From a virus, in the IMG/VR virus record IMGVR_UViG_3300032007_000018, positions 72,445-136,444 of that record: a stretch of DNA of 64,000 bases. One strand, written 5' to 3'. Below the pieces are notes generated by a model that was not told where the DNA came from, made no database searches, and worked only from the letters and a program-made list of their open reading frames with translations. Positions 28,826 through 63,283 of this stretch are shown here, piece by piece. Within the stretch, counting starts at the first letter, position 1; every line of letters begins with the position of its first letter. A program made the translations under genes and the position numbers.

Positions 28826-28858
28826 AAAAAATTTTTATATAATATTTATAGAATAAAA
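28826..28858 (+). promoter_or_regulatory. Rightward promoter (class B-like) for 28876..
   Basis: TTGACT, 17 bp, TATAAT, then AAAAGGAGA SD. Confidence 0.5.
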
Positions 28859-28875
28859 CAAAAAGGAGATTTTAT

Positions 28876-29448
28876 ATGATTATCGCCATTATTATTCTTG
28901 GAATTCTTTTGGTAATATCCATTTTGTTTAATCTAGCCTCTTTTAGAACTTTATTCGCAGTAATGCGTGATATCCGAGATCTTGAAAATCTCCGAGAAGA
29001 ATACGATTTTATCAATGGCGATGTTGAAATTGATGAAAATCGTATTGCAAATAAATTTCCAAACACAATTCTACTTTGTCATGTTGAAAAAAATCATGAT
29101 CCTAAAGACACAAGCACAACAAAAGTTGTAGATATATCAAGTTATCCGAAAAATCATGTAATTGGAATAACCTATTTTGTCCAACATCAGTTTTTCTCTG
29201 ATCTCAAAGATAGCGTAAAAATGGACGAATTACGCAATCACCTTCGCGCAGAATTTATTGAGGACCATCCAGAGGAAGATGATTTAGAATTCATTGACAA
29301 GATGATCGATGAAGCAATTCATGAAACATTAGGCGGAGAATATAATATTGATGAAGCGGGAGGCGCAATGACACGTCCACTAATCCCCAACTGCACTGTA
29401 TATCAATTAAAGGACGGTAGATGGCTATGGCGGCAAGAATCATTTTAA
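28876..29448 (+). CDS. Membrane-anchored hypothetical protein
   Basis: Track ORF, intact. N-terminal transmembrane helix. Confidence 0.6.
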   Translation: MIIAIIILGILLVISILFNLASFRTLFAVMRDIRDLENLREEYDFINGDVEIDENRIANKFPNTILLCHVEKNHDPKDTSTTKVVDISSYPKNHVIGITYFVQHQFFSDLKDSVKMDELRNHLRAEFIEDHPEEDDLEFIDKMIDEAIHETLGGEYNIDEAGGAMTRPLIPNCTVYQLKDGRWLWRQESF

Positions 29449-29663
29449 TTATCGCATGGATAATTATGGTGCTCCTTACGCTGACGCAGTATGCTGACCT
29501 CGTGGCGGATTAGGACGTCCCTCGCGCAAGAAAAATTTTAGCAGGTTTGGTATTCATCTTAGGAGCCCCGATATTCTGTGCTTATACAGCACTGTCGGGG
29601 CTTCTTGACTATTTTTTGCCAGAAGGATGGGACGATGATGATGATAGCGAATACAAACATTAA
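29426..29663 (+). CDS. Small two-transmembrane protein with an Asp-rich tail (holin-like), one in-frame TAG
   Basis: MAMAARIILIIAWIIMVLL...ADLVAD[TAG]DVPRARKILAGLVFILGAPIFCAY...DDDDDSEYKH. Ends at TAA. Confidence 0.4.
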
Positions 29664-29674
29664 GGAGAACCATT

Positions 29675-30022
29675 ATGCTTATTAAAAAATCAGATTTACT
29701 TTTTGAAAATCCGTACCGCAAGATTTTTAAGTATCACTTGGAAGAAGGCGGACAGACAACTATCGCCGCATACTGGGGTGAACTTTTAGATATTCAGGTC
29801 CAAGAGGACGATATCGTACTTTGGGCTGCTATAGCTCCATACTATACAGATATCATGGGAGAAGCGCATAAACGTGAAGACAAACCCACGATACTAACTT
29901 TTACGGCTGTAGGAACGGGCTGGGAATATAAAGATCGCAATATCGGCCAGTACTTCAAGACTGTCCAAATGCCTTCTGGATTGGTTTGGCACATTTTCGT
30001 AAAGAAGGGCTCAGAAACATGA
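29675..30022 (+). CDS. Hypothetical protein
   Basis: Track ORF, SD AAGGAGAA. Confidence 0.6.
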   Translation: MLIKKSDLLFENPYRKIFKYHLEEGGQTTIAAYWGELLDIQVQEDDIVLWAAIAPYYTDIMGEAHKREDKPTILTFTAVGTGWEYKDRNIGQYFKTVQMPSGLVWHIFVKKGSET

Positions 30023-30489
30023 GTATAGATGGGCGCATCCTGGACACGGATAATCGCTTTTACGATTACTGTAATACCTTCGGTATTACGAATCCGTTCC
30101 AAGAGGAATAGAAACGATTTGCCGCACGCTGTAAAAAAGAAGAAAAATATACAATAATAGAAAAAGAAAGTCCAGAAGACATAGCATGGCGGAAAGAGTG
30201 GTCCAAAAAAAGAGATGAATACCTGCGGCTGAGCCATACTTTCCGCCTCTGGGACTTCCACTTCTGGATGCCGTGGGAGAGGTTTAAGTGGCATTGTGGC
30301 TTTGATAAAGAATATACGGATGTGAGTATATATATGCCGTGCGACTGCGCCGAACGGCAATGCAGTATGGAGTGCGCATATTTTTTGCACGAGTGTCCTC
30401 GTGCAAAGGGAGAGTTGAAAACTCCTGAAATTTTAGGATTTGACGGACGGTGGGAGTATCATGACAAAGACTATGGAGGTATTTATTAA
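30019..30489 (+). CDS. Cys-rich hypothetical protein with one in-frame TAG
   Basis: The ATGA overlap with the upstream gene marks the start. The frame is open to TAA at 30487 if the TAG at 30109 is sense. Confidence 0.45.
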
Positions 30490-31241: not shown

Positions 31242-31679
31242 TCCGAAAACGAAAATTGGTTTCAGGATTATTTTGGCCAGACAAAAAGATTTTCGCGAGT
31301 GAAAAAAAATTTTTTCCCGAAATAGTACCCGGAGTACAGCATGTAAAACGTATTGTCGCTTCGCGGAATACGCAAGGCCTACTGTCGCGTCTCACCCCCG
31401 TCAAATAGCCCGGGTCAAATTAAAGTCCCCCCAACATTACTCGCCCACTATTGTTGCTCGCACGGCCGGCGTTGGGCGCGGCGGCCGTTGTTTGCGATAA
31501 CGCAGGCCTTCAGCAATTCACACGCGCACACGTCCCACACACAGCGCACCACACGCACGCCCAAAAGTCAATACACAAAATGCACAAACAATACCCGGAC
31601 ATTTTTGTGCAACATTACCATTGACAACTACCTGCGCCTGTGCTACAATGTAGACAACAAAGGAAAGGAGATACCCCCA

Positions 31680-32033
31680 ATGACTAACTTCTTCAAAGAC
31701 TCCAACACTCGCCCCTTCGCTATCACTATTACCATTCTGTTGGTTATCCTTCTCAGCTTCTGCATCTGGTTTATACTGGACGGCGAGCTTAAGAACGCCG
31801 AGGAGCGCAAGCCCGACTACTACGCGCTGGCCACCACAGTCAACGCCATTGACAGAGATACAGACGTCGTGACCTGCGAGGACAGCACAGGCAACTTGTG
31901 GGAGTTCTACGGCGTGGAAGATTGGCAAGTGGGGGACAACGCCAACCTGCTGATGGACACAATGGGAACAGAGAACATCTACGACGATGAAATCTGCGGC
32001 GCGACCTTCGGCGCGTGGACACTCACCAAGTAA
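31680..32033 (+). CDS. Early small membrane protein. First gene of the GC-rich promoter-cassette array.
   Basis: Class A promoter TTGACA 31621, tgcTACAAT 31641. SD AAGGAG. A transmembrane helix. The track ORF start at 31353 is an upstream artefact. Confidence 0.6.
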   Translation: MTNFFKDSNTRPFAITITILLVILLSFCIWFILDGELKNAEERKPDYYALATTVNAIDRDTDVVTCEDSTGNLWEFYGVEDWQVGDNANLLMDTMGTENIYDDEICGATFGAWTLTK

Positions 32034-32185
32034 ACAACAACAGCGCAGTTAAAAGGCTGCGCTGTTTGTCTATTGTTGGTTATTTAACTAACTAACAGCC
32101 GGACGGCATTGTTAAAAAACTAACGCTTGACAACACCGTGCGATTGTGCTATTATAATGATAGAAAGAGAAAGGAGATTAAAACA

Positions 32186-32326
32186 ATGTACGAATACGAA
32201 ATCTACAACGAGCGCACCAACGAGCATGACTTCATCCACGGCTACAACCGCGAGGACGCTTGGGCGCGCAACAAGTGGGCAGACCGCCGCGAGTGGCGCA
32301 TCATCCACACCGAATACATCGACTGA
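32186..32326 (+). CDS. Early small protein (46 aa)
   Basis: Own promoter (TTGACA 32127 / TATAAT 32153). SD AAAGGAGAT. Terminator hairpin after the stop. Confidence 0.5.
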   Translation: MYEYEIYNERTNEHDFIHGYNREDAWARNKWADRREWRIIHTEYID

Positions 32327-32587
32327 GAGGACGCGCAAGCGTCCTTTTTCTTTTGCCTATACATTGTTAGTTAATTAACTAACGAATGCCGATGACGAGC
32401 GCGCGGCCGCGAACTTCACCGCGCTAAAGTGCTACAGTAATAAATTACGCAAATGATTGTTAAATAACTCACAATCAGCCATCCCGAAACTACATTGTTA
32501 AAAAAATAATTATTAAAAAACTCTTGACATTTATCCGGTTGTATGTTATTATAATTACAGAAAGAAAAAGAAAAGGAGAACAAAAAA

Positions 32588-32746
32588 ATGAAAAAGCACA
32601 TCACTTACATGAATTGCGAAACGGGCGAAATCACTGAGATCCACAAGGACGCGATGGAATGGTATCGCGCGGGCGTTGAGGTGGCGCTGATGGACTACAG
32701 CGAAACGCTTGGCGAATGGGTAGAGAGAGGGCGCTGGATTCACTAA
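32588..32746 (+). CDS. Early small protein (52 aa)
   Basis: Promoter TTGACA 32524 / TATAAT 32550. SD AAAAGGAGAA. A terminator hairpin overlaps the 3' end. Confidence 0.5.
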   Translation: MKKHITYMNCETGEITEIHKDAMEWYRAGVEVALMDYSETLGEWVERGRWIH

Positions 32747-32869
32747 TCCAGCGCTTTTTATCCGGGTGCTTGTTAGTTAATTAACTAACAAAGTATTTTG
32801 AAAAAAACGCTTGACAAATAATCCGGTCTATGCTATACTATAATCAGAAAGAGCAAGGAGGAAATAAAA

Positions 32870-33052
32870 ATGACGCACACTGACTACTTTATCACCGCGT
32901 TTCGTTTCAATGAGACTTTCGATACTGAAGCCAAAGCCCGCAAACGTTTTGAAGAAGTCAAAACCCGCTTCACCTACTGCGAGTTGAAGCAAGCGGAAAC
33001 TGACGATGAAACCTACTACTACGCCAAAAGTCTGGAGATTTATCGCAAGTAA
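32870..33052 (+). CDS. Early small protein
   Basis: Track ORF. Promoter TTGACA 32811 / tgcTATACTATAAT 32831-44. Confidence 0.6.
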   Translation: MTHTDYFITAFRFNETFDTEAKARKRFEEVKTRFTYCELKQAETDDETYYYAKSLEIYRK

Positions 33053-33135
33053 GTCTCCAGACTTTTTCAAAAAACACTTGACATTTTCCCGGCTTTGTGC
33101 TATTATAATTATAGAAAAAGAAAGGAGATACTAAA

Positions 33136-33254
33136 ATGTTTTACTGGTACACTTTTGAAGATGGCTATGCGGTCTGCGTCAAGGGCTTTTCCAAGAACGA
33201 GCTTATCCGCGAGACGCGCAAGCATGGTTGCATTGTTTCCAAGGTTCCCGCGTG
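33136..33254 (+). CDS. Early small protein (39 aa)
   Basis: Promoter TTGACA 33078 / TATAAT 33104. SD AAAGGAGAT. Confidence 0.45.
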
Positions 33255-33345
33255 AACCTTGGAAATTTTTTTTAGATTTTTTTGAAAAAAGTCTTGACAT
33301 TCTGCGCCCGGTGTGCTATAATACAATCAGAAAGGGGATAGAGAA

Positions 33346-33513
33346 ATGAACGAATTCCGTGAAAAGCTGATTGACCGAATGATTAAGCAATTCGGGTTTG
33401 AGCATCCCAACACCATCGCCTTTGCTAACCTGTGCGAAGCCACTTGGATTAGTGACGAAGCCCTTGAGAAAGCGGTGGAACACCACGAAGCCAACAGCAT
33501 CTTTGAGGACTGA
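33346..33513 (+). CDS. Early small protein (55 aa)
   Basis: Promoter TTGACA 33294 / TATAAT 33317. SD AAAGGGGAT. Confidence 0.5.
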   Translation: MNEFREKLIDRMIKQFGFEHPNTIAFANLCEATWISDEALEKAVEHHEANSIFED

Positions 33514-33692
33514 GAAATCAGCCCTCTTTTTTATTCCAATAGCAAGATTGTTAGTTAATTAACTAACGAGCGTGCGCCCGGGCGGATTCACCGACTGCCG
33601 CAGATTGTTAAAAAAATAATTATTAAAAAATGCTTGACATTTTGCCCGGTCTGTGCTATTATAATTACAGAAAGAGAAAGGAGGCCACTAAA

Positions 33693-33800
33693 ATGGCTAT
33701 GACGATTGAATACTTTGAGACCATGGGCGATGCCCTTGATGAACTCCGCGACTGGGAGGCCTACGAGGCCGACATCGCCGATAGCGACCCCTGGGCCTAA
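33693..33800 (+). CDS. Early small acidic protein (35 aa)
   Basis: Promoter TTGACA 33634 / TATAAT 33660. SD AAAGGAGG. Confidence 0.4.
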   Translation: MAMTIEYFETMGDALDELRDWEAYEADIADSDPWA

Positions 33801-34071
33801 GCCCGGGGGATTTTTAATTCGTTTTTTCGGGCGCGCCGCCCACGACCCAGCCGGCGCGTTTTCGCACTAAATCAGTAGTTCGATAATTTGTTAGCGTTTT
33901 AGTGCGCTAAAGCGCTAACGTGCAATGTCCCGAAATGAATAATCATACATGGAAAATGAATAAAAATTTTTTTGCCAAATTGCATTTTGGGGGTTGACAT
34001 TCCCGGATAATCTGGTATAATAGGTTACAGAAAGGGCAAGGAAAAGCCCCCAAACCAGAAAGGAAAAAACA

Positions 34072-34224
34072 ATGTACTCTGTGTGGATGACCGATGACCT
34101 CTGCTGCGACGATGTGATGGTGTTCGAAGGAACCCTCGCTGACTGCCTCGCCTACACCGCCGATGACGAATTCGACGAAATGTACATCGTAGAGCCAGAT
34201 GGTTTCACCGTGTACGGTGACTAA
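34072..34224 (+). CDS. Early small acidic protein (50 aa)
   Basis: Promoter TTGACA 33994 / TATAAT 34016. Conserved leader ACAGAAAGGGCAAGGAAAAGCCC..AAACCAGAAAGGAAA, shared with 35277. Confidence 0.45.
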   Translation: MYSVWMTDDLCCDDVMVFEGTLADCLAYTADDEFDEMYIVEPDGFTVYGD

Positions 34225-34244
34225 TCCAAAAGGAGGACAACTCA

Positions 34245-34421
34245 ATGACCACTTTCTTCAACCGCACCCCTGCCGAGCAGGAAATCATCCGCAAGGCTTA
34301 CGACTTTGAAGTCGCCGCCATTGAAGCGGAAAGCTCCGAACGTAACCCCTACTTTGAAGCCCTACAAACTATGGGGCTGTGGGAAGCCGTCAATGAAGCG
34401 CTGGAAATGCGCCACAACTAA
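34245..34421 (+). CDS. Early small protein (58 aa)
   Basis: SD AAAGGAGGA. Co-transcribed with 34072. Confidence 0.45.
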   Translation: MTTFFNRTPAEQEIIRKAYDFEVAAIEAESSERNPYFEALQTMGLWEAVNEALEMRHN

Positions 34422-34706
34422 GAGAGCCGAGCCAATCGACTCTCTTTTCATTTGTCCAAGAGGATAAATAGCCACACGTGAGTAATGAATAATTATTCAT
34501 CGGCCGGCCGCCCACGCGCCATGCGGCCGGTTTTTCCATTATACCACAGCCCCAGTAATTTGTCAATAGACAATTTGCACAAATTTTCAATACACCGGGC
34601 GCCCGAAATTTGTGCATTTTGCCAAGAGTAGAAAATGAAAAAATAGTTGACAAAATGCCGCGCATCTGCTATACTGTTATCAGATAAGGAAAGGAGATAC
34701 AAAACG

Positions 34707-35153
34707 ATGAAAATTTGGTTTGACATGGATGGGACGCTGGCTGACCTGTACGGCGTTGATAACTGGCTGGATAAGCTCCGCTCTGGCGACCCCTCCCCCT
34801 ATATGGATGCCGCGCCGTTACTCCGCCTGTCCGCTCTGGCGCGAGTGCTGAATCGCCTGCTCCGCGAGGGCAACGAGGTCAGCATCGTGAGCTGGCTGTC
34901 TAAAAACAGCACCCCCGAATATGACAATATGGTGACTGCGGCAAAACACGCATGGCTGGCGAAACACCTGCCGAGCGTCAAGTGGACTGCGGTGCGGATT
35001 GTCCCCTACGGCACACCGAAAAGCGAGGTTGCCGAGCTTGACCCCCACGACGTGCTGTTTGACGATGAAGAAAACAACATCATCGAATGGGAAGAAGCTG
35101 GCGGTTGGGGCTTTGACCCCTCCGAGATTATGAGTTTTCTGCGGGCGGCATAA
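34707..35153 (+). CDS. HAD-superfamily 5'(3')-deoxyribonucleotidase-like (NT5C family) hydrolase
   Basis: MKIWFDMDGTLADLYG, which is HAD motif I DxDGT. Promoter TTGACA 34647 / TATACT 34670. The track ORF has an N-terminal artefact extension from 34647. Confidence 0.6.
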   Translation: MKIWFDMDGTLADLYGVDNWLDKLRSGDPSPYMDAAPLLRLSALARVLNRLLREGNEVSIVSWLSKNSTPEYDNMVTAAKHAWLAKHLPSVKWTAVRIVPYGTPKSEVAELDPHDVLFDDEENNIIEWEEAGGWGFDPSEIMSFLRAA

Positions 35154-35276
35154 GCCCGCGGGGCGCTCGCCCGGGCTGAAAAAAATTTTCAAAAACCCCT
35201 TGACATTTCCGGGAAACCTGCTATAATAGATTACAGAAAGGGCAAGGAAAAGCCCAAAAACCAGAAAGGAAACGCT

Positions 35277-35465
35277 ATGTATACTCTGATTATCACCCGC
35301 ACTTGCGGCGAGACCCCCACCGAGGTCAACTTCCCCATCTCCGGCTGCGATGCGGCTTATACCGCATTCCGCATGGCTTGCGAGCTGTGCGATCTCGCGG
35401 GCGGCGGTGTCTACCTGACAGATGCCAATACGGGCGAGATTCTCGCCGACAACTCCGAGGACTAA
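35277..35465 (+). CDS. Early small protein
   Basis: Track ORF. Promoter TTGACA 35209 / TATAAT 35221. Shares its leader with 34072. Confidence 0.5.
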   Translation: MYTLIITRTCGETPTEVNFPISGCDAAYTAFRMACELCDLAGGGVYLTDANTGEILADNSED

Positions 35466-35654
35466 TCCTCGGAGTTTTTTTGAGCCGCGCGTGCCCGGGC
35501 GCCACGCGCGGTTTTTGCATAATTATACGTCATTTATGAATTTTTATTCATTACACCTAGTAATCAAAAATTTTTTCATTTTTCCTAAAAAAGTTCTTGA
35601 CATCCGGGCGCAAGTGTGCTAATATAGTATCAGAAAACGAAAGGGGATAAAAAA

Positions 35655-36140
35655 ATGACTATCATCACTTCTGAACTGCCTATCAGCTTCATCTATGACC
35701 CTGCGCACAATCGCGCCCGTTATTCCATCAATAATGGCGAAAGCTGGATGAATCACGGCGAATTTTGTGAGCGCATGGCAAAAGTCATTCTCGGCTTCAG
35801 CCCCGACAAGGATTCCGTGGCTTTTGATAAGGGATATGACATTCCCGAACTCAAGGCGAGCGTTAAGTCCTATAAGTGCGGCCTCAGCAACTGCAAGGAC
35901 ATGCCTAAGACCCCCACCGAGTTCATGGCTGAGTTCTGGAGACGCGATATTGCCGAGCTCCACATATATGTCTGTGACCATGGCGATTATATGGCGCTCT
36001 ATATAATGAACACGCCAGAATTTCAGCGGTTCATTGAGCACTTCGCCAAGTGGGAAGAGGACACTCACAACTTCAGAATGTATACCTGCGACAGCAAGGT
36101 TGAACGGTGGTTGACAAATAATTATGCAGAGGATGAATAA
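35655..36140 (+). CDS. Early hypothetical protein (161 aa)
   Basis: Track ORF. Promoter TTGACA 35597 / TAATAT 35620. A palindromic terminator lies at 36122-36165. Confidence 0.65.
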   Translation: MTIITSELPISFIYDPAHNRARYSINNGESWMNHGEFCERMAKVILGFSPDKDSVAFDKGYDIPELKASVKSYKCGLSNCKDMPKTPTEFMAEFWRRDIAELHIYVCDHGDYMALYIMNTPEFQRFIEHFAKWEEDTHNFRMYTCDSKVERWLTNNYAEDE

Positions 36141-36400
36141 TCCTCTGCATAATTATTCATTTTCCGGCGGCGCGCTCACGGGCCTGGCGCGCCGACTTTC
36201 ACGCGCTAAAGTGCTAAAGTAATAAAAATTTGGATTATCACGCTTTCGCACGTTAAAGTATTAATTCCCGAAAGTAGTCCATCGCTGGACTATCCAAGAG
36301 TGGCGAAGATTGTTAAAAAAAAGATTATTAAAAAAGGGGTTGACACCCGGGCGATTGTGTGCTATACTGTTACCAGAGTTAAGGAAAGGAGATAACCACC

Positions 36401-36850
36401 ATGACTACCTACACTATCAACCGCCCCGCCGCCGCCCCGAAAAATGAGGGCATCGCCCGCGAATGGGCTCTGTGTGCCTACTATAAGGTTACCCGCACGT
36501 CACACGACAGCCTTGCCTATGACAAGGGCAGCGACCTTGACGCGGGTAGCAAGCATATCTCCATAAAGGCAAGCGCGTTCACTCTGATGGCGGGTTGTCT
36601 GTGTGAGGGTCTGACCTCCTTTGACGCCATCTGGAATCTTTATGCCAGCAAGGTGCATAGCAACACCTTCGCCTATGTCACCGCGGACTTCACCGTGTAC
36701 GAGATGAACCTTGACGAGTTCAAAAAGTTCGTATATGCTTTCGCTCATACCGAACGCGAGAGCGAGAAAAACGGCGGTCAGGTCAAGATTCGCCTCCGCA
36801 AGGAAAGCGGCAAGATGCTCAAGTGGCTGGCCAATATGGCCGCCGCTTGA
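36401..36850 (+). CDS. Early hypothetical protein (149 aa)
   Basis: Track ORF. Promoter TTGACA 36340 / TATACT 36364. Confidence 0.65.
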   Translation: MTTYTINRPAAAPKNEGIAREWALCAYYKVTRTSHDSLAYDKGSDLDAGSKHISIKASAFTLMAGCLCEGLTSFDAIWNLYASKVHSNTFAYVTADFTVYEMNLDEFKKFVYAFAHTERESEKNGGQVKIRLRKESGKMLKWLANMAAA

Positions 36851-36929
36851 ACGCCCCGCAAAAATAATGCTTGACAAATCAATGAATATATGCTATAATA
36901 CAAATAGAAAATGAAAAGGAGATAAAAAA

Positions 36930-37127
36930 ATGAGAGATATTAACAGAATTATGCCGCTGATGGAACAGCTCGGCAATGTTTGGGAGCAGTTTCCCGACCT
37001 GCGCTTTATGCAGTTCATCGTCAACTTCCAGTCGTGGCTCGGCTCCGATGGCTTCTATATGGAAGATGACAAATTGATCGAGAAGATTTGCGAGTTCGCA
37101 ACCGAAATGAGAAAGGGGTACTTCTAA
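36930..37127 (+). CDS. Early small protein
   Basis: Track ORF. Promoter TTGACA 36871 / TATAAT 36894. Confidence 0.55.
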   Translation: MRDINRIMPLMEQLGNVWEQFPDLRFMQFIVNFQSWLGSDGFYMEDDKLIEKICEFATEMRKGYF

Positions 37128-37393
37128 TGGCTATCACAATCAAGCGCGAAAAGAACAACCGCGGCGTTCCTCTGCGCGGTCTGCGAGTTGGCGAAACTTT
37201 CCTATATGACAACCGCGTGGGCGTAGTGGTCGAGCGCAATGGGCATCAGTTCTATCTTGACCTGACCACCTGCCACAACTTCCGCAAAAGCAATGACCTG
37301 CGGTGGGACACTTATTACAAAAACAGCGAGCTTGACCCCGATACCCTTGTCCTGCCTGTGGAAATTGAACTTACTTACAAGGTCGTGGGCTAA
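37127..37393 (+). CDS. Early small protein (88 aa)
   Basis: TAATG overlap with the upstream gene. It is the C-terminal part of track ORF 37088..37393. Confidence 0.5.
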   Translation: MAITIKREKNNRGVPLRGLRVGETFLYDNRVGVVVERNGHQFYLDLTTCHNFRKSNDLRWDTYYKNSELDPDTLVLPVEIELTYKVVG

Positions 37394-37496
37394 GCCTGCG
37401 ACCTTTGGCCCGGGCGGCGCGAAAAAAATTTAATTTTATGCTTGACATTTGCTTACACCTGTGGTATATTAGTTATAGAAAGAGAGGTTGATTGAA

Positions 37497-37619
37497 ATGC
37501 GTGATTACTTCAAGCGTATTCGTTGCAAAGGTCGGTATTGCCGCTATGAGATTACGAACAAAACTGTTCGTAGCGTGGCAAAGAATGAAACTAAAAAGGA
37601 GATGGCGAAACGTGGATAA
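37497..37619 (+). CDS. Small basic Cys-containing protein (40 aa), tentative
   Basis: SD GAGAGG, 7 nt, ATG. Promoter TTGACA 37442 / TATATT 37465. An alternative overlapping frame is track ORF 37492..37761. Confidence 0.3.
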   Translation: MRDYFKRIRCKGRYCRYEITNKTVRSVAKNETKKEMAKRG

Positions 37620-37761
37620 GGAACTGAAAGCCTATCGGCAGAAAATGAGCGCAGAAGATTTACAGATGTATCTGCATTTCAAGAAGCGCGGGAGCAAGGT
37701 TGCCGCAAAGAAAGGCAAAGGGTCGTATGACCGCAAGGACTTTAAGAAAGGGGTTGCGTAG
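37609..37761 (+). CDS. Small basic protein, tentative GTG start
   Basis: SD AAGGAG, 8 nt, GTG. It is the C-terminal part of the track ORF. Confidence 0.3.
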   Translation, partial: NVDKELKAYRQKMSAEDLQMYLHFKKRGSKVAAKKGKGSYDRKDFKKGVA

Positions 37762-37762
37762 A

Positions 37763-37957
37763 ATGATGGAATGGCAGAAGAAAATGCTTGAGGGTATGCG
37801 CCTGATGCAGGAAGCCTGCGCCGAGGTCGGTTCTTGGAATGACTGTCGCAAATGCCCTTTTGGTCGGTATTGCGATACGCTCATGGAGAACGATGACATT
37901 GATTCCTTCATGGGATTGCAAGACAAAGAATGGATTGGCGATGAGAAAGTCGATTGA
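37763..37957 (+). CDS. Small Cys-containing protein (64 aa)
   Basis: MMEWQKK... is the C-terminal part of track ORF 37700..37957. Confidence 0.4.
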   Translation: MMEWQKKMLEGMRLMQEACAEVGSWNDCRKCPFGRYCDTLMENDDIDSFMGLQDKEWIGDEKVD

Positions 37958-38157
37958 TTTTTTCAATCGGTTTTTTACTTTGTTCCATTTTTGGCCCGCG
38001 CGGCGACGGTCGCTGGGCAACCGAGGCGCGCGGTATTCGCGCCGGGCGCGCGTTTTCAACAAATTTTGAGCGCCAAGTTTGTTCATAATTACCAGTTGAC
38101 ATTTCCCAAAAGGTGTGCTATACTCTAATTGTAATTTGAAGAAAGGACACCAAACCA

Positions 38158-38820
38158 ATGTATGATTTTGACATTTTCGAGCGATTTATCGTGGTAGATA
38201 CTGAAACCACGAATACGCTTGACGAGCCTATCTGTTATGATGTGGGCTTTGCGGTTGTTGACAGATTCGGCGCGGTTTACGAGAAGTTTTCTTTCGTAGT
38301 TGCCGAAGTGTTCCTTGACCGCGAGTTAATGTCTTACGCCTATTACGCCGACAAAATCGAGCAGTATTGGCAGGACATTAAAGCAGGTCGGCGCAAGCTG
38401 GCGAAATTCTCCACCATTCGGCGCGTTTTCGCTGATGCTTGCAAGCGAAATCAAGTGAAAGTTGTGCTTGCCCACAACGCCCGCTTTGATAACCGCTCCC
38501 TCAATCTGACACAGCGTTATCTGACCGCCTCAAAGTATCGCTATTTCTTTCCTTTTGGCTTGCAAGTATGGGATACGCTGAAAATGTCGCGTGAAGTGCT
38601 GAAAAACGATGATGACTATGGCGCGTTCTGCTACAACAACGACTTTCTGACGCAACGCCTTTGCAAGCAATTTACCGCCGAAGTGCTTTTCCGCTTCATC
38701 ATTGGCGAGATTGATTTTGAGGAATCGCACACAGGGCTTGAAGATGTGCTGATTGAAAAGGAAATTTTTGCCTATCTCATGTGGCGCAAGCCCGAAATCT
38801 GCGGCAAGCTCTGGGGTTAA
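38158..38820 (+). CDS. DnaQ-like DEDDh 3'-5' exonuclease
   Basis: VVDTETT (Exo I), AHNARFD (Exo II), HTGLEDV (Exo III). Promoter TTGACA 38096 / TATACT 38119. Confidence 0.7.
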   Translation: MYDFDIFERFIVVDTETTNTLDEPICYDVGFAVVDRFGAVYEKFSFVVAEVFLDRELMSYAYYADKIEQYWQDIKAGRRKLAKFSTIRRVFADACKRNQVKVVLAHNARFDNRSLNLTQRYLTASKYRYFFPFGLQVWDTLKMSREVLKNDDDYGAFCYNNDFLTQRLCKQFTAEVLFRFIIGEIDFEESHTGLEDVLIEKEIFAYLMWRKPEICGKLWG

Positions 38821-38940
38821 TTACCCTAGGGCAACCGCCCGGGCGGCCGGCAAATTGCACAATCAGCACAAGGAAAAAATCTTATTCTTTGTGTATTTTG
38901 CCTATTGTAATTTTCGTAGGGCTATGCTATACTATAATTG

Positions 38941-39037
38941 TTCCAAGGGAAAGGGAACGCAAGCCGAACCAAGGTCGGGAGAATTGAGAACCATCCGAGG
39001 CCGCTCAAAAAAATCCGAAAAAAAATGAAAAAAAGGC
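38941..39037 (+). ncRNA. Promoter-driven ORF-less structured RNA (about 100 nt). Shares its 5' end with the RNA at 46262.
   Basis: Promoter TTGTAA 38905 / tgcTATACT 38928. Begins AUUGUUCCAAGGGAAAGGGAACGC, with hairpins GUUCC..GGAAC and CCGA..UCGG. No ORF. The next promoter starts at 39038. Confidence 0.4.
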
Positions 39038-39118
39038 TTGACAAATCCCCAAACCTGTGGTACAATAAAATCACAAAAGGAGAGCTGAACTCCACAAACA
39101 GAGAAAGGGTTGATACCA

Positions 39119-39489
39119 TGACCACTTCCAAGACCACCAACAAGACCGCCCTTCAGTTCGCGCTGGACAATCTGCCGAACGCTCCCGCCGATGTGCGCGA
39201 GAAGTGGCAGAAGATGATCGACCAGCTCGACAAGAAGAACGCCGCACCCAAGAAGCTGACCGCCCAGCAGGAGAAGAATGTCGCCATGAGCGGCGAGGTG
39301 CTGGACTTCCTGCTCGACCACGAGGGCGAGGGCTTCACTGTGAGCGACCTGCTCAAGTCTGTGCCTGTCCTTGAGGGCGACAGCAACCAGCACGCCTCTG
39401 CGCTGATGCGTGCGCTTGTGCTGGCTGGCTCTGTGGAGAAGTACACCGACAAGCGGCGCACCTACTTCCGCGCGGTGACTGCCGCGTAA
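39119..39489 (+). CDS. Early protein, paralog family 1 (with 45643 and 59848)
   Basis: Promoter TTGACA 39038 / TACAAT 39061. Shares ...KRRTYF... C-terminus and ATGACC start context with its paralogs. Confidence 0.6.
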
Positions 39490-39649
39490 TCCCCAGCGGC
39501 AGGGGGGGCAATAGCCCCCCCAATTCTTTTACCCTGCCACTTTAATACTTTAGCGCGCGAGCGCGCCCGGGCGACGGTTTACATAATAATTTTCTGCTTG
39601 ACATTTTCCAAAAGGTATGCTATACTATCCACAGAAAGGAGAGATAGCT

Positions 39650-40474: not shown

Positions 40475-40482
40475 CACAACAA

Positions 40483-42038: not shown

Positions 42039-42039
42039 A

Positions 42040-52160: not shown

Positions 52161-52312
52161 ACGACTATCCAAAATTACCTATAATTTTTACCCATCCGTT
52201 CCTGCGGCGACCCCGTCTCAACGCTCCTCACACCGAGCACAGCCGCATCCATTTGACTTTTATAATTTTATATGTTATAATATATATAGAAAAATAGGAA
52301 AGGAGTATAAAG

Positions 52313-54315: not shown

Positions 54316-54407
54316 TAATCATATCCAAAAAATTTTTCTTCTTTTGATTTTTATAAAAAAATAATATATAATATATATAGAAAATGAATGAAAGGGGGTT
54401 TTCAGAA

Positions 54408-55929: not shown

Positions 55930-56039
55930 AGAAATGCCTTTTGGAGCATAAATCCAAAAGGCATTTCTTCATATAGTATTGCTTTTTATTAAAAAATAAT
56001 GTATAATATATATAGAAAATAAAAAGGAGTATTCTCTAT

Positions 56040-57356: not shown

Positions 57357-57386
57357 TTGATTTTTATAAAAAATTATAATATAATA
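57357..57386 (+). promoter_or_regulatory. Class B promoter preceded by a terminator hairpin (57340-57360)
   Basis: TTGATTTTTATAAAAAATTATAATATAATATATATAGAAAAT. Confidence 0.5.
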
Positions 57387-57959: not shown

Positions 57960-58038
57960 GAGAAAAAGAGCTTTCTTTGATTTTTATAAAAAATTATTGT
58001 ATAATGTATATGTAAGATGAAAAAAGGAGATATTGCTG

Positions 58039-59736: not shown

Positions 59737-59847
59737 AAACTTCCCATTGATTTTTTAAAAAAAATAATATATAATATATATGTAAGGTAAAGAAAGAAAC
59801 CCTTACAAAATCAAAAAATATTTTGGGTGGCGACCGACGCCAGAAAG

Positions 59848-60246: not shown

Positions 60247-60323
60247 TTTTCCACAACCTGTCGGGCAAAAGTAAATAAATTACCTCCTCTAAAACGCAAT
60301 ATGTTTTAGAGGAGGTAATTTTT

Positions 60324-61150
60324 ATGATAGGAATTTATAAAATCACAAATAAAATTAACCAGATGGCCTATATTGGATAGTCTATTCGAATAGAGTAGAG
60401 ATGGCAGGAGCATATCGCCGGAAATAAAAATTCATATATTCATAATGCGATAAAAAGATATGGTGTTGCTAATTTTAGTTTTGAAATATTGGAAGAGTGT
60501 CCTAAAGAATTATTAGACGAAAGAGAAATTTATTGGATAAAATATTATAATACTTTTGAGAATGGATACAATCTAACAGTTGGTGGCAATTCTGGTTTTC
60601 ATTATAATATTGACGCTATTTTTGAGGATTATTAGAAAACTAACAGTCTAAGTGAAACCGCTAAACATTTCAATTGTCATTATAATACCGTAAAAAATAT
60701 ACTTAAAATCTTTGGTTGCGAGAATTTCGGAGAGTGGCAAGAAGAAAAGCCAGTAGAACAAATAGATCCTAAAACATTGACTGTTATTACTACATACCCG
60801 TCGTTGCGTGCGGCAGGAGAGGCATTTGGCTGTTCTTGGACTGCTATATAGGCTGCGGCCGCAGGTAAACACAAAAGTTCTTGTGGATTTTACTGGAGAT
60901 ATGTTGGAGATAACAATAAGATTTTTGAAAAAGTAAATAGCACACGCAGTTAGAAAACTCCAGTTATTTAGTTGGATTATAATACACTAGAAGAATTAAA
61001 CTATTTCGAATCTGCTACAGAGGCAGCAAGAGCTTTAGGAAAAACAGTTGGAAAGCCAGGCTCTTGTATTACTGCTGCGTGTAGAGGCTCTGCAAAATCA
61101 GCCTATGGATTTAAATGGAAATATGCAGATTCTTCATATTTTTAGGCGTA
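60324..61150 (+). CDS. GIY-YIG homing endonuclease with a NUMOD-like C-terminal repeat region, TAG-recoded
   Basis: MIGIYKITNKINQMAYIG[TAG]S...RW[TAG]EHIAGN...YGVANF...GYNLTVGG. Repeated G(C/K)SWTAI-like modules. SD GAGGAGG. The 3' end is uncertain: a terminator hairpin lies at 61164-61202. Confidence 0.7.
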
Positions 61151-61306
61151 ATCAACGCCACAATCAAGAGCCGAGGGAATTATCCCTCGGCTCTTTTTGT
61201 CTTTAACCTGCTCGCCGCGCCAGCGCACGTGCCTACCGTCCGCAGAAATAAAAGTTGCATTACCTATTTTTTTTTGTTATAATTATAATATAAGGGAGTG
61301 ATTATT

Positions 61307-62134
61307 TTGAAATTTATGGTTTCTTGTCGTCAGCCTTTAACTTTTTTAAAATAGGTTTAGGAAATTAGGGTTGATTATAAAGATATAGAGCGTCTCAAAG
61401 ATTTTATATCTGATGATTGGACTTGCGCCGCTGATATTGTAATATATATTCCAAAAGATTAGATTATTGATTGGAATACACTAAATTTGTATAAAGGCTT
61501 GCTTAATATTATAATTGCCGCTGAAGATTCTTCAGTTATCAAAGAAGCTCACGAAAATGGATATAAGGCATTTTGGTCTTATCCCGCTTCTACGTTCTGG
61601 GAGCTAAGAGGACTTTTAGATTTACAAGTGAATTAGGTTCTACTTGATGCGCCATTATATTTTAATTTAATGAAAGTAAAAAATATTTGCGGCGATGTTG
61701 AAATTAGATTAGTTGTAAATAAATGTATAAACAGCTATATGGTGCGTAAAAATGGAATTTGCGGGACATATGTACGACCAGAAGATGTAGAGGTATATGA
61801 AGAATATGTTTCGCATATGGAATTTGACACATCAGATTTACAAAATGAAAGGACACTGTATAAAGTTTATGCAGAATAGAAAAATTGGCCTGGAAATTTA
61901 AATCTTTTATTAACTTATCTAAATGAAAATGTTGATAATCGCGGTTTTGAATTATTGCCAGTAGAGGATGATGATAAACACTATTTTGCACATCGACGTC
62001 TTAACTGCGGCCAGCGCTGTCAGGAAGATCCAACCAGATGTAGTTACTGCGTAAAGGCCTTTAATTTAATCAATGCCATAGATAAAAATAGTAAAAGGAT
62101 TCTCGAACAGATAGAAAAAGTAGAAGCAAAGTAA
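61307..62134 (+). CDS. Hypothetical protein with 5 in-frame TAG codons
   Basis: A single frame is open from TTG/ATG (61307/61316) to TAA at 62132 only if TAG is sense. Track ORF 61670..61879 is an internal fragment. SD AAGGGAG. Confidence 0.5.
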
Positions 62135-62194
62135 TATATATAGTTGATTTTTATTAAAAAATATAATATAATATATATAGAAATAAGAAGAAAG

Positions 62195-63283
62195 GTGCAA
62201 AAGAATATTGTGACTAGATGGACTGATACGGATCAAGCATTATTCAATACAATCGCAAGAATGTCACAGACTGCTCTTATGCGGTCAATGAAGAATTTTT
62301 TGAATAAATATTACACTAAAAAGAATATTGATATAACCAAGGATTATATTCTTTGTGAAGGCGATATTCCTATTGTTTTAGTGGCCCACATGGATACAGT
62401 ATTTAAAACTCCGCCGGAGAAAATTTATTATGATTCAAAATATCATGTTATGTGGTCTCCTCAAGGGCTGGGCGCAGATGATAGAGCAGGAGTATATCTA
62501 ATTTGGAGAATAGTGCAGGCCGGTTATCGTCCTCATATTATTCTTACTACGGATGAAGAAAAAGGCGGATTAGGTGCAATCGCTCTCGTTCATCAAATTC
62601 CAGAAGTGCCATTTGATGTAAAGTATATAATTGAACTTGATCGTCAGGGCATGAATGACTGTGTATTTTATTCTTGTGCTAATGATGAGTTTGAGAAATA
62701 TATTGAAAATTTCGGATTTGTAACCGATTGGGGAACTTTTAGCGATATTAGCGATATATGCCCGGCATGGAAAATTGCTGGTGTAAATCTTTCTGTTGGG
62801 TATTTTGGAGAGCATAGAGAAACTGAAACTTTAAACACAAGTGCTATGATGAGTACTTATAATAAAGTAATTAATATGCTGAATTCAGCGAATGATGCTC
62901 CTCATTTCGAATATATTCCCGATATGCTTGAAAAGTATTATTTTTCTCTAGGTAGAAAATATATGACAGCATACGGATATCCTCTCGATGATGAAGATGA
63001 ATGGGAATATGAACGCAAACTCGGTGGTTATTTTCCAGCGGCTAATTCCATTGCTTCAGAAAAATGTCAATGTTCTAAATGTGGAAAAATTTATGACAAA
63101 GATGACGTTTTTCTTGTTAAGGCTAAAGACTTTGAGGGATCTTTATATTACTGCGTTGATTGCATTGACACCAACATCAACTGGTGCAAAAAATGCGGCG
63201 AACCCTTTGAGGTGGAACATGAAGATGATGAAATTTGTCCCGACTGCGCTGGAAAAAAGAGAGTAAAGACTGTTGTAATGTGA
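62195..63283 (+). CDS. M20-family metallopeptidase-like domain fused to C-terminal Zn-ribbons
   Basis: AHMDTVF and GLGADDRAGV (M20/ArgE-type metal-binding motifs). C-terminus CQCSKCG...CVDCID...CKKCG...CPDC. GTG start after class B promoter 62145. Confidence 0.5.
   Translation: MQKNIVTRWTDTDQALFNTIARMSQTALMRSMKNFLNKYYTKKNIDITKDYILCEGDIPIVLVAHMDTVFKTPPEKIYYDSKYHVMWSPQGLGADDRAGVYLIWRIVQAGYRPHIILTTDEEKGGLGAIALVHQIPEVPFDVKYIIELDRQGMNDCVFYSCANDEFEKYIENFGFVTDWGTFSDISDICPAWKIAGVNLSVGYFGEHRETETLNTSAMMSTYNKVINMLNSANDAPHFEYIPDMLEKYYFSLGRKYMTAYGYPLDDEDEWEYERKLGGYFPAANSIASEKCQCSKCGKIYDKDDVFLVKAKDFEGSLYYCVDCIDTNINWCKKCGEPFEVEHEDDEICPDCAGKKRVKTVVM

What the first reader, a model, noticed from the sequence alone, without database searches (positions are those of the whole stretch)
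28826..62200. Two distinct consensus promoter families partition the genome
Class A is TTGACA...TGCTATACTATAAT. It serves the GC-rich genes plus the tRNA and the ncRNAs.

Class B is TTGATTTTTATAAAAAATTATnnTATAATATATATAGAAAAT. It sits at about 28826, 41814, 43111, 49401, 49594, 52254, 54345, 55978, 57357, 57976, 59747, 61253 and 62145 and serves the AT-rich genes. These include the two AbrB-type regulators and a membrane-protein pair, which lie as AT-rich islets inside the GC island.

Both families look sigma-A dependent. They may mark temporal classes, or could be told apart by a phage-encoded factor that recognises the conserved extra sequence downstream of the -10 (ATATATAGAAAAT).
Basis: seen in the sequence. 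Interest (0 to 1): 0.6.

Follow-up and report, generated by a model that had tools for sequence, protein, structure and literature searches.

The report
Two promoter families, TAG-recoded phage
The non-structural half of this gut or rumen phage, which reads the stop codon TAG as an amino acid, is organised by two sharply distinct families of host-type promoters: one copies the host's own tRNA-gene promoters and drives dozens of tiny early genes, and the other is phage-specific and heads larger genes and the phage's tRNA arrays.

Summary
Class A has 34 copies, all on the + strand, at 31621-49036. It reads UP-like A-tracts, TTGACA, 17 nt, TGn, then TATACT or TATAAT. Class B has 12 + strand copies (28815-62172) and one - strand copy. 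It reads TTGAYT, an A/T-only T-tract/A-tract spacer, TATAAT, then ATATATAGAAAAT. There are no intermediates, and matches are 30 vs 0.19 and 14 vs 0.00 expected by chance.

The window is a TAG-recoded (code-15-like) phage distantly related to phAss-1. Both classes serve TAG-free genes. The leftward structural arm has 19 TAG per 1000 codons.

Class A is identical to promoters of chromosomal tRNA genes in Ruminococcus. Its genes have host-like GC3 (0.65). Class B is about ten times rarer in the bacterial loci than in phage loci. It heads a 15-tRNA array just beyond the window, and suppressor tRNA(CUA) genes in relatives. Both families and their layout recur in hundreds of IMG/VR loci.

Best reading: two sigma-A regulons. 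Class A is immediate-early and factor-independent. Class B is a second wave that re-tools translation before the TAG-rich late genes. Timing is inferred, not shown.

This is a new member of a known kind, of moderate interest.

The parts
31621..31649 (+). Class A promoter (-35 to -10), serves 31680-32033
32127..32155 (+). Class A promoter, serves 32186-32326
32524..32552 (+). Class A promoter, serves 32588-32746
32811..32839 (+). Class A promoter, serves 32870-33052
33078..33106 (+). Class A promoter, serves 33136-33255
33294..33322 (+). Class A promoter, serves 33346-33513
33634..33662 (+). Class A promoter, serves 33693-33800
33994..34021 (+). Class A promoter (16-nt spacer), serves 34072-34421
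34647..34675 (+). Class A promoter, serves 34707-35153 (5'-nucleotidase-like)
35200..35227 (+). Class A promoter (16-nt spacer), serves 35277-35465
35597..35625 (+). Class A promoter, serves 35655-36140
36340..36368 (+). Class A promoter, serves 36401-36850
36871..36899 (+). Class A promoter, serves 36930-37393
37442..37470 (+). Class A promoter, serves 37497-37619
38096..38124 (+). Class A promoter, serves 38158-38820 (exonuclease-like)
38905..38933 (+). Class A variant (TTGTAA -35), followed by a non-coding unit of about 100 nt
39038..39066 (+). Class A promoter, serves 39118-39489
39598..39626 (+). Class A promoter, serves 39650-40012
40066..40094 (+). Class A promoter followed by about 370 nt with no convincing ORF (leader or ncRNA)
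40441..40469 (+). Class A promoter whose -10 ends 13 nt upstream of tRNA-Lys(CUU)
40483..40558 (+). tRNA-Lys (anticodon CTT), the only tRNA in the window
40671..40699 (+). Class A promoter, serves 40730-40942 and the AbrB-family gene 40942-41208
41269..41297 (+). Class A promoter, serves 41344-41673
42577..42605 (+). Class A promoter, serves 42632-43015
43657..43685 (+). Class A promoter, serves 43717-44167
44206..44234 (+). Class A promoter, serves 44262-44570
44612..44640 (+). Class A promoter, serves 44685-45311 (HD domain)
45394..45421 (+). Class A variant (TTGCAA, 16-nt spacer), followed by the non-coding unit 45425-45545. The 5' end of that unit pairs with the -35 region of the next promoter.
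45537..45565 (+). Class A promoter, serves 45643-46044
46225..46253 (+). Class A promoter followed by about 330 nt that look non-coding
46578..46606 (+). Class A promoter, serves 46638-47221
47263..47291 (+). Class A promoter, serves 47321-47783
47825..47853 (+). Class A promoter, serves 47884-48575
48622..48650 (+). Class A promoter, serves 48683/48741-49019
49008..49036 (+). Class A promoter (the last one), serves 49048-49221
34538..34566 (-). The only - strand consensus promoter in the island (TTGACA-17-TGGTATAAT). It is followed by a GC-rich non-coding sequence. The same type recurs in relatives.
28815..28843 (+). Class B promoter, serves 28876-31241. It lies back to back with the promoter of the sigma-like gene.
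41813..41841 (+). Class B promoter inside the island, serves the two small hydrophobic proteins 41865-42038 and 42040-42516
43111..43139 (+). Class B promoter inside the island, serves the AbrB-family gene 43162-43413 and 43430-43546 (GC 0.35)
49401..49429 (+). Class B promoter with no ORF behind it (possible short RNA)
49594..49622 (+). Class B promoter, serves 49655-50113
52253..52281 (+). Class B promoter, serves 52313-54315
54344..54372 (+). Class B promoter, serves 54408-55929
55979..56007 (+). Class B promoter (TTGCTT), serves 56040-57254
57357..57385 (+). Class B promoter (exact consensus), serves 57420-57959
57977..58005 (+). Class B promoter, serves 58039-59736
59747..59775 (+). Class B promoter, serves 59857-60246, which is followed by the GIY-YIG gene 60324-61151
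62144..62172 (+). Class B promoter, serves 62261-63283 (peptidase-like)
50848..50876 (-). Class-B-like promoter on the - strand, serves 50377-50787(-)
31409..49243 (.). 26 copies of CCCGGG (core of cgCCCGGGcg), all inside the island and none elsewhere in the window. About 19 lie 27-67 nt upstream of a class A -35 and are often followed by ATTGTTAAAAAA.
   Evidence: 12% of class A promoters in relatives have it, against 0.1 per kb background
28775..28803 (-). Sigma-A-type promoter (TTGACT-17-TATAAT) of the leftward arm, upstream of the sigma-like gene. The divergent pairing with a class B promoter recurs in many of the 78 related loci that carry the gene.
27681..28745 (-). First gene of the leftward arm (354 aa, 7 in-frame TAG). 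Matches phrog_5767 'sigma factor', but the sigma identity was not verified.
1..28745 (-). TAG-recoded structural (late) arm: terminase 24651-26405, portal 21807-23477, a 3059-aa ORF at 1389-10568 with 94 TAG. It has neither promoter family.

Best explanation
Both families are promoters read by the host's housekeeping (sigma-A) RNA polymerase. They define two regulons in the rightward, non-structural half of a TAG-recoded phage whose host is probably a Ruminococcus- or Oscillospiraceae-like Clostridium.

Class A is a copy of the host's own stable-RNA promoter design: A-tract UP-like element, perfect TTGACA, 17 nt, TGn, TATACT, ATAAT. It is repeated about every 500 bp as an intergenic cassette, often with a hairpin and a cgCCCGGGcg box. 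Each cassette drives one or two very small, mostly orphan genes, several non-coding units, or tRNA-Lys(CUU). These genes are TAG-free and have host-like GC3. I infer that they are expressed at once, at full strength and without any phage factor, and are translated with host tRNAs. That would make them immediate-early accessory or takeover genes.

Class B keeps TTGA-17-TATAAT. It replaces the spacer with a conserved A/T-only T-tract/A-tract, has weaker upstream A-tracts and has an all-AT discriminator. This design is rare in the bacterial loci sampled. It drives larger TAG-free genes, one AbrB-type regulator, the phage tRNA array and, in relatives, suppressor tRNA(CUA). I infer a second wave (delayed-early or middle) that re-tools translation towards AT-rich codons and TAG=Gln. 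After that the TAG-rich leftward arm can be translated. That arm starts with a TAG-containing regulator-like gene under its own sigma-A promoter.

Shown: the motifs, their discreteness, their targets, their conservation and the host match.

Inferred: the order of expression and any factor that separates the two classes.
For: - **Motif statistics and discreteness:**
- **Code 15:** long ORFs on the - strand appear only with TAG read-through.
- **TAG density:** 19.4 per 1000 codons in the late arm. It is 0 in class B genes at 49.6-60.2 kb and 1.5 in the island calls, where all five TAGs sit in calls I judge doubtful.
- **GC3 tiers:** 0.65, then 0.51/0.45/0.33, then 0.24.
- **Host match:** the exact class A 34-nt pattern is found mostly in Ruminococcus, Oscillospiraceae and Eubacteriales genomes. 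In nine loci it lies directly upstream of single tRNA genes. Two of these loci have chromosomal neighbours such as a GH10-dockerin xylanase, TsaD and a sortase.
- **Class B is rarer in bacterial loci:** 4 matches in 0.81 Mb of bacterial loci against 51 in 0.99 Mb of phage loci that were not selected for class B.
- **tRNA array in this genome:** the source contig continues with six more class B promoters, no class A, and 15 tRNAs. The first tRNA lies just downstream of a class B promoter.
- **tRNA link in relatives:** class-B-seeded loci hold 195 tRNAs per 1.01 Mb, including 6 Sup(CTA). Class-A-seeded loci hold 28 per 0.99 Mb with no Sup. Capsid-seeded loci hold none in 1.5 Mb. Sup(CTA) sits directly behind class B or class-B-like promoters in L258, L271, L206 and the closest relative L236.
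- **Family-wide conservation:** over 119 and over 118 IMG/VR loci match the two patterns. There are co-directional arrays of 15-26 class A promoters, followed in L108 and L118 by class B. 140 class B instances anchored only on the 19-mer still show TTGA at 17 nt and the T/A-tract spacer.
- **Not a duplication artefact:** few island genes are paralogues. The invariant hexamers flank variable spacers, which indicates selection on the elements.
Against: - There is no expression or binding data of any kind.
- Both classes look competent for unaided sigma-A initiation, so nothing in the sequence forces different timing.
- First genes behind both classes are equally TAG-poor across relatives: 1.35 and 1.14 TAG per 1000 codons.
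- The GC contrast between the classes is strong here but weak family-wide (0.40 vs 0.36). The codon-usage tiering may therefore be lineage-specific.
- One tRNA in the window and two tRNAs in one related locus (L170) are behind class A.
- The tRNA and class B association in relatives comes partly from loci selected through the class B motif. The source-contig case is free of that bias.
- No suppressor tRNA was seen in the 73 kb available for this genome.
Confidence: 0.55

Rival explanations
1. Mosaic origin without regulatory meaning. The two families mark two gene pools. One is a hyper-variable accessory array whose genes travel with PeSL-like class A cassettes and come from GC-richer relatives. 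The other is the AT-rich backbone with its own class B promoters. Both classes fire at the same time.
For: - Promoter class tracks the composition of the gene behind it, even for islets inside the island (43162-43546 has GC 0.35 behind class B).
- The CCCGGG box is confined to the island.
- Island gene order differs among relatives. For example, L182 joins the homologue of 44175-44645 to that of 38179-38775, with the junction inside a promoter cassette.
- Island genes are mostly orphans.
Against: - Class A is not tied to GC-rich DNA in relatives (L191 and L192: 20-23 copies at 35-36% GC).
- Ends of homology fall in cassettes only slightly more often than expected (29.5% vs 20.8%).
- The strict split of cargo between the classes is not explained by origin alone. 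The tRNA arrays and suppressor tRNAs are with class B, while class A matches the host promoter design.
Confidence: 0.25
2. A phage-encoded DNA-binding factor separates the classes. Either a repressor or shut-off factor acts on the class A cassettes, for example through the cgCCCGGGcg palindrome or the UP region. Or an activator or repressor acts on the conserved palindromic A/T spacer of class B (TTTTTATAAAAA). This would be the mechanism behind the temporal split and is compatible with the best explanation.
For: - Class B is conserved across its whole 42 nt, including the spacer. Total information is 61.8 bits against 55.3 for class A, whose spacer is uninformative.
- Class B is about ten times rarer in bacterial loci.
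- 26 CCCGGG boxes are positioned 27-67 nt upstream of class A -35 elements.
- Two AbrB-family regulators are encoded, one in each class.
- There is a precedent in the distantly related SPbeta, where the repeated element SPBRE in early promoters is the operator of the master repressor MrpR (PMC10516654).
Against: - No factor has been tied to either element.
- The CCCGGG box accompanies only 12% of class A promoters in relatives. It also precedes two class B promoters in the window.
- A/T palindromes arise easily in A/T-only sequence.
Confidence: 0.3
3. Class B is read not by sigma-A but by the phage's own sigma-like protein (27681-28745).
For: - phrog_5767 'sigma factor', E = 5e-55.
- The gene is conserved in 78 related loci and sits next to a class B promoter.
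Against: - Class B has a canonical -35/-10 at 17 nt.
- The protein has no Pfam or NCBIfam sigma domain.
- There is no structural match to sigma factors, though the model has pLDDT 68.
- The gene carries 7 TAG codons, while class B drives suppressor tRNAs in relatives. That dependence would be circular.
- Class B genes are TAG-free, as early genes are.
Confidence: 0.07

Closest known systems
Early promoters and PeSL cassettes (promoter-early stem-loops) of T4-like phages (PMC2839356, PMC4122927)
   Same: Many near-identical, very strong host-sigma promoters with upstream A-tracts. They are combined with hairpins into short intergenic cassettes that flank small, variable, mostly orphan genes in a plastic region. 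Gene order differs between relatives.
   Different: The host here is Gram-positive-type and the promoter design has an extended -10. The cassette carries a GC-rich palindrome. Evidence that recombination occurs at the cassettes is weak here. The second class keeps a -35 instead of a MotA box.
Early-promoter arrays of large phages of low-GC Gram-positive bacteria, such as the SPO1 host-takeover module (from my own knowledge, not checked in papers here) and Enterococcus phage EF1
   Same: Dense co-directional arrays of consensus sigma-A promoters drive small early genes. In EF1 the array lies divergently from the same sigma-like gene and the structural arm.
   Different: EF1 shows one merged type (TTGACA with the ATATAGAAAGGAG leader). 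The window has two discrete types, and its genome is TAG-recoded.
Host stable-RNA promoters with UP elements (Ruminococcus tRNA-gene promoters)
   Same: Class A is identical over the scanned 34-nt pattern (TTGACA-N14-TGCTATACTATAAT) and has the same tttttGAAAAAA-type upstream tract.
   Different: Bacterial genomes have scattered copies. The phage has 34 in 17.4 kb, and they drive protein genes with short purine-rich leaders.
SPBRE/MrpR of Bacillus phage SPbeta (PMC10516654)
   Same: A short element repeated in the promoter regions of early genes of a distantly related phage group. It is the operator of one master repressor, which is a model for the CCCGGG box or the class B spacer.
   Different: The sequences are unrelated. 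No binding protein is known here. The lifestyle of this phage is unknown.
Code-15 (TAG to Gln) phages: phAss-1 (PMC10607447) and experimentally validated code-15 phages (PMC9523058)
   Same: TAG is used as a sense codon mainly in structural genes, early genes are code-neutral, and relatives carry suppressor tRNA(CUA).
   Different: The text search of the phAss-1 paper found no mention of promoters. The link between promoter class, codon usage and tRNA genes is new here and is inferred.

Membership tests
Sigma-A/sigma-70 housekeeping promoter (class A) | -35 TTGACA, 17 +/- 1 nt spacer, -10 TATAAT-like hexamer | tested here: met
   TTGACA in 32/34. Spacer is 17 nt in 31 and 16 nt in 3. The -10 is TATACT, TATAAT or TATTAT.
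Sigma-A/sigma-70 housekeeping promoter (class A) | Extended -10 (TGn) and upstream A/T-tract (UP-like element), typical of strong Firmicute promoters | tested here: met
   TGn in 34/34. Consensus upstream is aaat..tt.taAAaaAac. The same is seen in 853 instances from relatives.
Sigma-A/sigma-70 housekeeping promoter (class A) | Correct position and orientation before a gene, with RBS and start codon or an RNA gene | tested here: met
   Median leader is 33 nt to an RBS-preceded start. tRNA-Lys starts 13 nt after the -10.
Sigma-A/sigma-70 housekeeping promoter (both classes) | Transcription initiation by host holoenzyme | not testable with these tools
   Needs in vitro transcription or 5'-end mapping.
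Sigma-A/sigma-70 housekeeping promoter (class B) | -35-like hexamer, 17-nt spacer, -10 TATAAT | tested here: met
   TTGATT, TTGACT or TTGCTT; 17 nt in 12/12; TATAAT in 11/12. 140 instances anchored only on the -10 block keep TTGA at 17 nt.
PeSL-type mobile regulatory cassette | Composite terminator or stem-loop plus early promoter between small ORFs of a variable region | tested here: inconclusive
   Hairpins are visible before many cassettes. The generic terminator scan is not above shuffles, at 32 vs 25.8.
PeSL-type mobile regulatory cassette | Cassettes are the points of exchange between otherwise unrelated genes in related genomes | tested here: inconclusive
   One clear rearrangement has its junction in a cassette (L182/L183). 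Ends of homology fall in cassettes at 29.5% vs 20.8% expected.
Code-15 (TAG-recoded) phage | Conserved phage genes are intact only if TAG is read through, and TAG is not used as a stop | tested here: met
   Summed - strand ORFs of at least 200 aa rise from 3,596 to 14,048 aa with TAG read-through. Terminase, portal and others were recovered. In the standard-code call, island gene ends coincide with the TAA/TGA ends of the code-15 call.
Code-15 (TAG-recoded) phage | Suppressor tRNA(CUA) | tested here: inconclusive
   None in the window or in the 9 kb beyond it. Six are present in related loci, including the closest relative L236.
Sigma factor (for the protein 27681-28745) | Sigma-70 region 2 and region 4 domains, or a sigma fold | tested here: not met
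SPBRE-like operator set | Short element repeated in the promoter regions of one gene class | tested here: met
   There are 26 CCCGGG boxes, all in the island, and about 19 lie 27-67 nt upstream of class A -35 elements.
SPBRE-like operator set | Bound by a phage repressor | not testable with these tools
   Needs binding assays.

The most novel reading that the evidence does not exclude
Transcription class, codon usage and genetic code are coupled into one timer.

1. Class A genes are host-mimic promoters with host-like codons and no TAG. They run on the unmodified host.
2. Class B promoters are a phage-specific design. They then deliver the phage tRNA arrays, including suppressor tRNA(CUA).
3. 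Only then can the leftward arm be translated. Its first gene is a regulator-like protein with 7 TAG codons behind an ordinary sigma-A promoter.

On this reading the switch to late expression is gated by translation rather than by transcription. The CCCGGG boxes and the small RNAs that pair with the next promoter's -35 region would be further layers of control over the class A array.
Probability: 0.3. Interest if true: 0.7.

Novelty: new member of a known kind. Interest (0 to 1): 0.5.

Why it matters
How stop-codon-recoded phages time their switch of genetic code is an open question. It has been argued mainly from which genes contain recoded codons.

This family offers concrete handles that can be synthesised:
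- two short, discrete promoter designs, one identical to host tRNA-gene promoters and one phage-specific;
- a physical link between the second design and the tRNA and suppressor-tRNA genes;
- a TAG-laden first gene of the late arm.

Reporter fusions and in vitro transcription could test the order of events without culturing the phage. The class A cassette is also a ready-made strong promoter for Ruminococcus-type Clostridia. If the two classes turn out to have the same kinetics, the finding reduces to an ordinary early-promoter array.

Tried and rejected
- **Megablast, island against INPHARED phages:** no match.
- **Close relatives of the two class B first genes (28876-29448 and 49655-50113) in IMG/VR:** one weak hit and none.
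- **Pfam on 30 window proteins:** almost nothing.
- **Rfam:** only the tRNA was found, both at gathering threshold and at E up to 1 in the island. The ncRNA-like units belong to no described family.
- **A third, late promoter motif in the leftward arm:** the intergenic gaps are short. The gap after the sigma-like gene shows no conserved motif in about 60 relatives.
- **Terminators:** the consensus scan is not enriched.
- **Cassette-bounded recombination:** only weak enrichment.
- **Gene duplication as the source of promoter similarity:** rejected. There are only four paralogous pairs among the roughly 40 island genes.
- **Chance or low complexity:** rejected by shuffles.
- **The block downstream of the -10 as the class discriminator:** rejected, because yAGAAA leaders occur in both classes and in phage EF1.

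Full report
**What the window is.** On the - strand of the left 28.7 kb, long ORFs exist only if TAG is read through. Summed ORFs of at least 200 aa rise from 3,596 to 14,048 aa, including one of about 3,060 aa at 1389-10571. With TAG read as Gln, this arm encodes terminase (24651-26405), portal (21807-23477) and virion proteins. A structural protein is 51% identical to one of phage phAss-1, which NCBI places in the 'Caudoviricetes code 15 clade'. It is 41% identical to one of Enterococcus phages EF1/VRE9. A text search of the phAss-1 paper found no mention of promoters (PMC10607447). The window is part of a 71.7-kb ENA metagenome contig. So this is a TAG-recoded phage of a Firmicute-type host. 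It has a leftward structural arm and a rightward non-structural arm that diverge at about 28.8 kb.

**Check of the observation.** Both families are real.
- TTGACA-N14-TGCTATACT with up to 2 mismatches occurs 30 times against 0.19 expected.
- A degenerate class B pattern occurs 14 times against 0.00 expected.
- A generic scan gives 34 class A promoters, all on the + strand, from 31621 to 49036, about one per 510 bp.
- It gives 12 class B promoters on the + strand, at 28815, 41813, 43111, 49401, 49594, 52253, 54344, 55979, 57357, 57977, 59747 and 62144, plus a class-B-like one at 50876(-).
- The two sets do not grade into each other. Class A has TTGACA in 32/34, TGn in 34/34 and spacer GC of 24-71%. 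Class B never has TTGACA, has spacer GC of 0-12% and has TATAAT in 11/12.
- One of the two AbrB-family genes (40942-41208) is in a class A unit, not behind class B.

**Anatomy of class A.** The hexamers and TGn are invariant, while the 14 spacer positions between them carry no information. That is the signature of selection on the elements rather than of recent copying. Only four paralogous pairs exist among the roughly 40 island genes.

Upstream lie A-tracts of the tttttGAAAAAA type. In this genome there is also a GC-rich palindrome. CCCGGG occurs 26 times in the window, all between 31409 and 49243. About 19 copies lie 27-67 nt upstream of a class A -35 and are often followed by ATTGTTAAAAAA.

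The targets are short, TAG-free and mostly orphan. They include a deoxyribonucleotidase-like, an exonuclease-like and an HD-domain protein. Class A also drives tRNA-Lys(CUU), 13 nt after the -10, and several stretches without ORFs.

**Anatomy of class B.** Conservation runs through the whole 42 nt: TTGAtTTTTatAAAAAAtTattaTATAATATatATagAAaat. I also took 140 unique instances from other phage contigs, anchored only on the 19-mer at and after the -10. These keep TTGA exactly 17 nt upstream and keep the T-tract then A-tract spacer, with GC of 13%. Upstream A-tracts are weaker than in class A.

The yAGAAA start and purine-rich leader also follow many class A promoters. They also follow the TTGACA-type promoters of Enterococcus phage EF1.

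**What each class serves.** In the window the first genes behind both classes contain no TAG, whereas the late arm has 19.4 TAG per 1000 codons. There, TAG makes up 39% of CAG + CAA + TAG.

Synonymous composition falls in tiers:

| Gene set | GC3 |
|---|---|
| Class A genes | 0.65 |
| Class B genes at 49.6-60.2 kb | 0.51 |
| Class B islets inside the island | 0.45 |
| Class B genes at 28.9-31.2 kb | 0.33 |
| Late arm | 0.24 |

Beyond the window, the same contig carries six more class B promoters, no class A, and 15 tRNA genes. The first tRNA lies just downstream of a class B promoter.

In related IMG/VR loci the tRNA counts differ by how the loci were seeded:

| Loci seeded by | tRNAs | Sequence | Sup(CTA) |
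|---|---|---|---|
| Class B motif | 195 | 1.01 Mb | 6 |
| Class A motif | 28 | 0.99 Mb | 0 |
| Capsid gene | 0 | 1.5 Mb | 0 |

Suppressor tRNAs sit directly behind class B or class-B-like promoters in L258, L271 and L206. The same holds in L236, which comes from a contig whose capsid-type protein is 95% identical to the window's.

**Conservation.** Several contigs hold both patterns. Relatives show co-directional arrays of 15-26 class A promoters with small ORFs, followed in L108 and L118 by class B.

The divergent pair at 28.8 kb recurs in many of the 78 related loci that carry the sigma-like gene. It consists of a class B promoter pointing rightward and a TTGACw-17-TATAAT promoter pointing leftward into the gene 27681-28745. 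In 50 of those 78 loci that gene has at least one in-frame stop.

**Link to the host.** The exact 34-nt class A pattern is found mainly in Ruminococcus, Oscillospiraceae and Eubacteriales genomes. In nine loci it lies directly upstream of a single tRNA gene. Two of these loci are clearly chromosomal, with a GH10-dockerin xylanase, a sortase and TsaD as neighbours. Class A is therefore the host's own stable-RNA promoter design.

Class-B-like matches are 4 in 0.81 Mb of these bacterial loci. I judged three of the four to lie in phage-like contigs. The comparison figure is 51 in 0.99 Mb of phage loci not selected for class B.

**Mechanism.** Shown:
- there are two discrete sigma-A-type designs;
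- one is identical to host tRNA promoters and the other is largely confined to phage;
- their cargo differs;
- both are conserved.

Inferred: class A is the immediate-early, factor-independent set that runs on host tRNAs. Class B is a second wave that brings tRNAs and, in relatives, the suppressor. The TAG-rich arm can then be translated. I give this 0.55.

Nothing in the sequence forces different timing, and first genes of both classes are equally TAG-poor across relatives. Three rivals remain:
- A purely mosaic origin (0.25).
- A phage factor acting on the class B spacer or on the CCCGGG box, which would be the mechanism of the split rather than an alternative (0.3). The precedent is SPBRE/MrpR in SPbeta (PMC10516654).
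- Recognition of class B by the phage's sigma-like protein (0.07). That protein has only a PHROG label. It has no sigma domain in Pfam or NCBIfam and no fold match.

**Comparison with what is known.** The closest analogues are:
- the early promoters and PeSL cassettes of T4-like phages (PMC2839356, PMC4122927);
- the early-promoter arrays of large phages of Gram-positive bacteria;
- host UP-element promoters.

Membership as sigma-A-type promoters is met on every sequence criterion. PeSL-type exchange is inconclusive: one rearrangement has its junction in a cassette, and homology ends fall in cassettes at 29.5% against 20.8% expected.

**Verdict.** The promoters themselves are a new member of a known kind. 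Interest is moderate and comes from the setting. In a recoded phage, the second promoter family is physically tied to the tRNA and suppressor genes, which gives a testable route to the timing of the code switch.

Noticed in passing
window 1-28745 (- strand); also 29421-31241, 60324-62134, 63291-64000 (+): The phage uses TAG as a sense codon. There are 181 in-frame TAGs in about 9,300 late-arm codons, including 94 in one 3,059-aa ORF (1389-10568). Three abundant-looking structural genes (12989-13984, 18065-19171, 19190-20206) have none and are GC-richer.
   Followed up: yes
window 27681-28745 (-), promoter 28803-28775 (-): The first gene of the late arm has 7 TAG codons and matches phrog_5767 'sigma factor'. 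No sigma domain or fold could be confirmed. It sits behind an ordinary sigma-A-type promoter, so its production may be gated by TAG suppression. 50 of 78 homologues in relatives also carry in-frame stops.
   Followed up: partly
window 31409-49243 (26 sites): CCCGGG (core of cgCCCGGGcg) occurs only inside the GC-rich island. It is almost always intergenic, lies 27-67 nt upstream of a class A -35, and is often followed by ATTGTTAAAAAA. Only some related genomes have it.
   Followed up: partly
window 38934-39037, 45425-45545, 46254-46577; relatives such as L083, L205, L267, L437: Short non-coding units lie behind class A promoters and start with TTGT(T)C(C)AAGRGG. In 18 of 33 unique units across loci the exact reverse complement (CCYCTTGACAA) lies 66-147 nt downstream. 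In 16 of those it is the -35 region of the next promoter (control 1.2%). The window example 45425-45545 folds with an 11-bp closing stem (-41.8 kcal/mol). There is no Rfam match.
   Followed up: partly
window 51252-52159 (7 copies) and 45357-45372: Iteron-like repeats GTCTAAAWTTTTAACA (9 matches vs 0.36 expected) flank the AT-rich divergent region around 51293-51925. This is a possible origin or operator cluster. One more copy sits just upstream of the variant promoter at 45394.
   Followed up: partly
window 34540-34650, 38850-38905, 45335-45394: Inverted TTGCACAA / TTGTGCAA motifs bracket the variant promoters (TTGTAA or TTGCAA -35) and the only - strand island promoter (34566-34538). That promoter is followed by a GC-rich non-coding sequence. 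The same arrangement recurs in L118 and L192.
   Followed up: no
window 11202-11801 (-), 23873-24583 (-), 60324-61151 (+); 30489-31241 (+), 23500-23856 (-): Three paralogous GIY-YIG homing-endonuclease genes and two HNH-type genes are scattered in both arms. They contain TAG codons. The one at 11202-11801 has its own hybrid promoter (11866-11838, -).
   Followed up: partly
L441 11740-21023 (window-equivalent 64.0-73.3 kb): The source contig continues with six class B promoters and 15 tRNA genes (Tyr, Asn, Trp, Leu, Met, Phe, His, Ile, Leu, Ser, Val, Gly, Leu, Phe, Leu). There is no suppressor tRNA before the contig ends.
   Followed up: yes
window 49401-49480: A class B promoter with no ORF behind it is followed by a short GC-rich hairpin (CCCCGGCCGGGG). 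This may be a small RNA.
   Followed up: no
window 39118-39489 / 45643-46044 and 39650-40012 / 42632-43015: There are two paralogous gene pairs in the island. The first pair is part of a duplicated module: variant promoter, non-coding unit, class A promoter, gene.
   Followed up: partly
window 40483-40558: The single island tRNA reads AAG. AAG makes up 59% of Lys codons in class A genes and in class B genes at 49.6-60.2 kb, against 33% in the late arm.
   Followed up: partly
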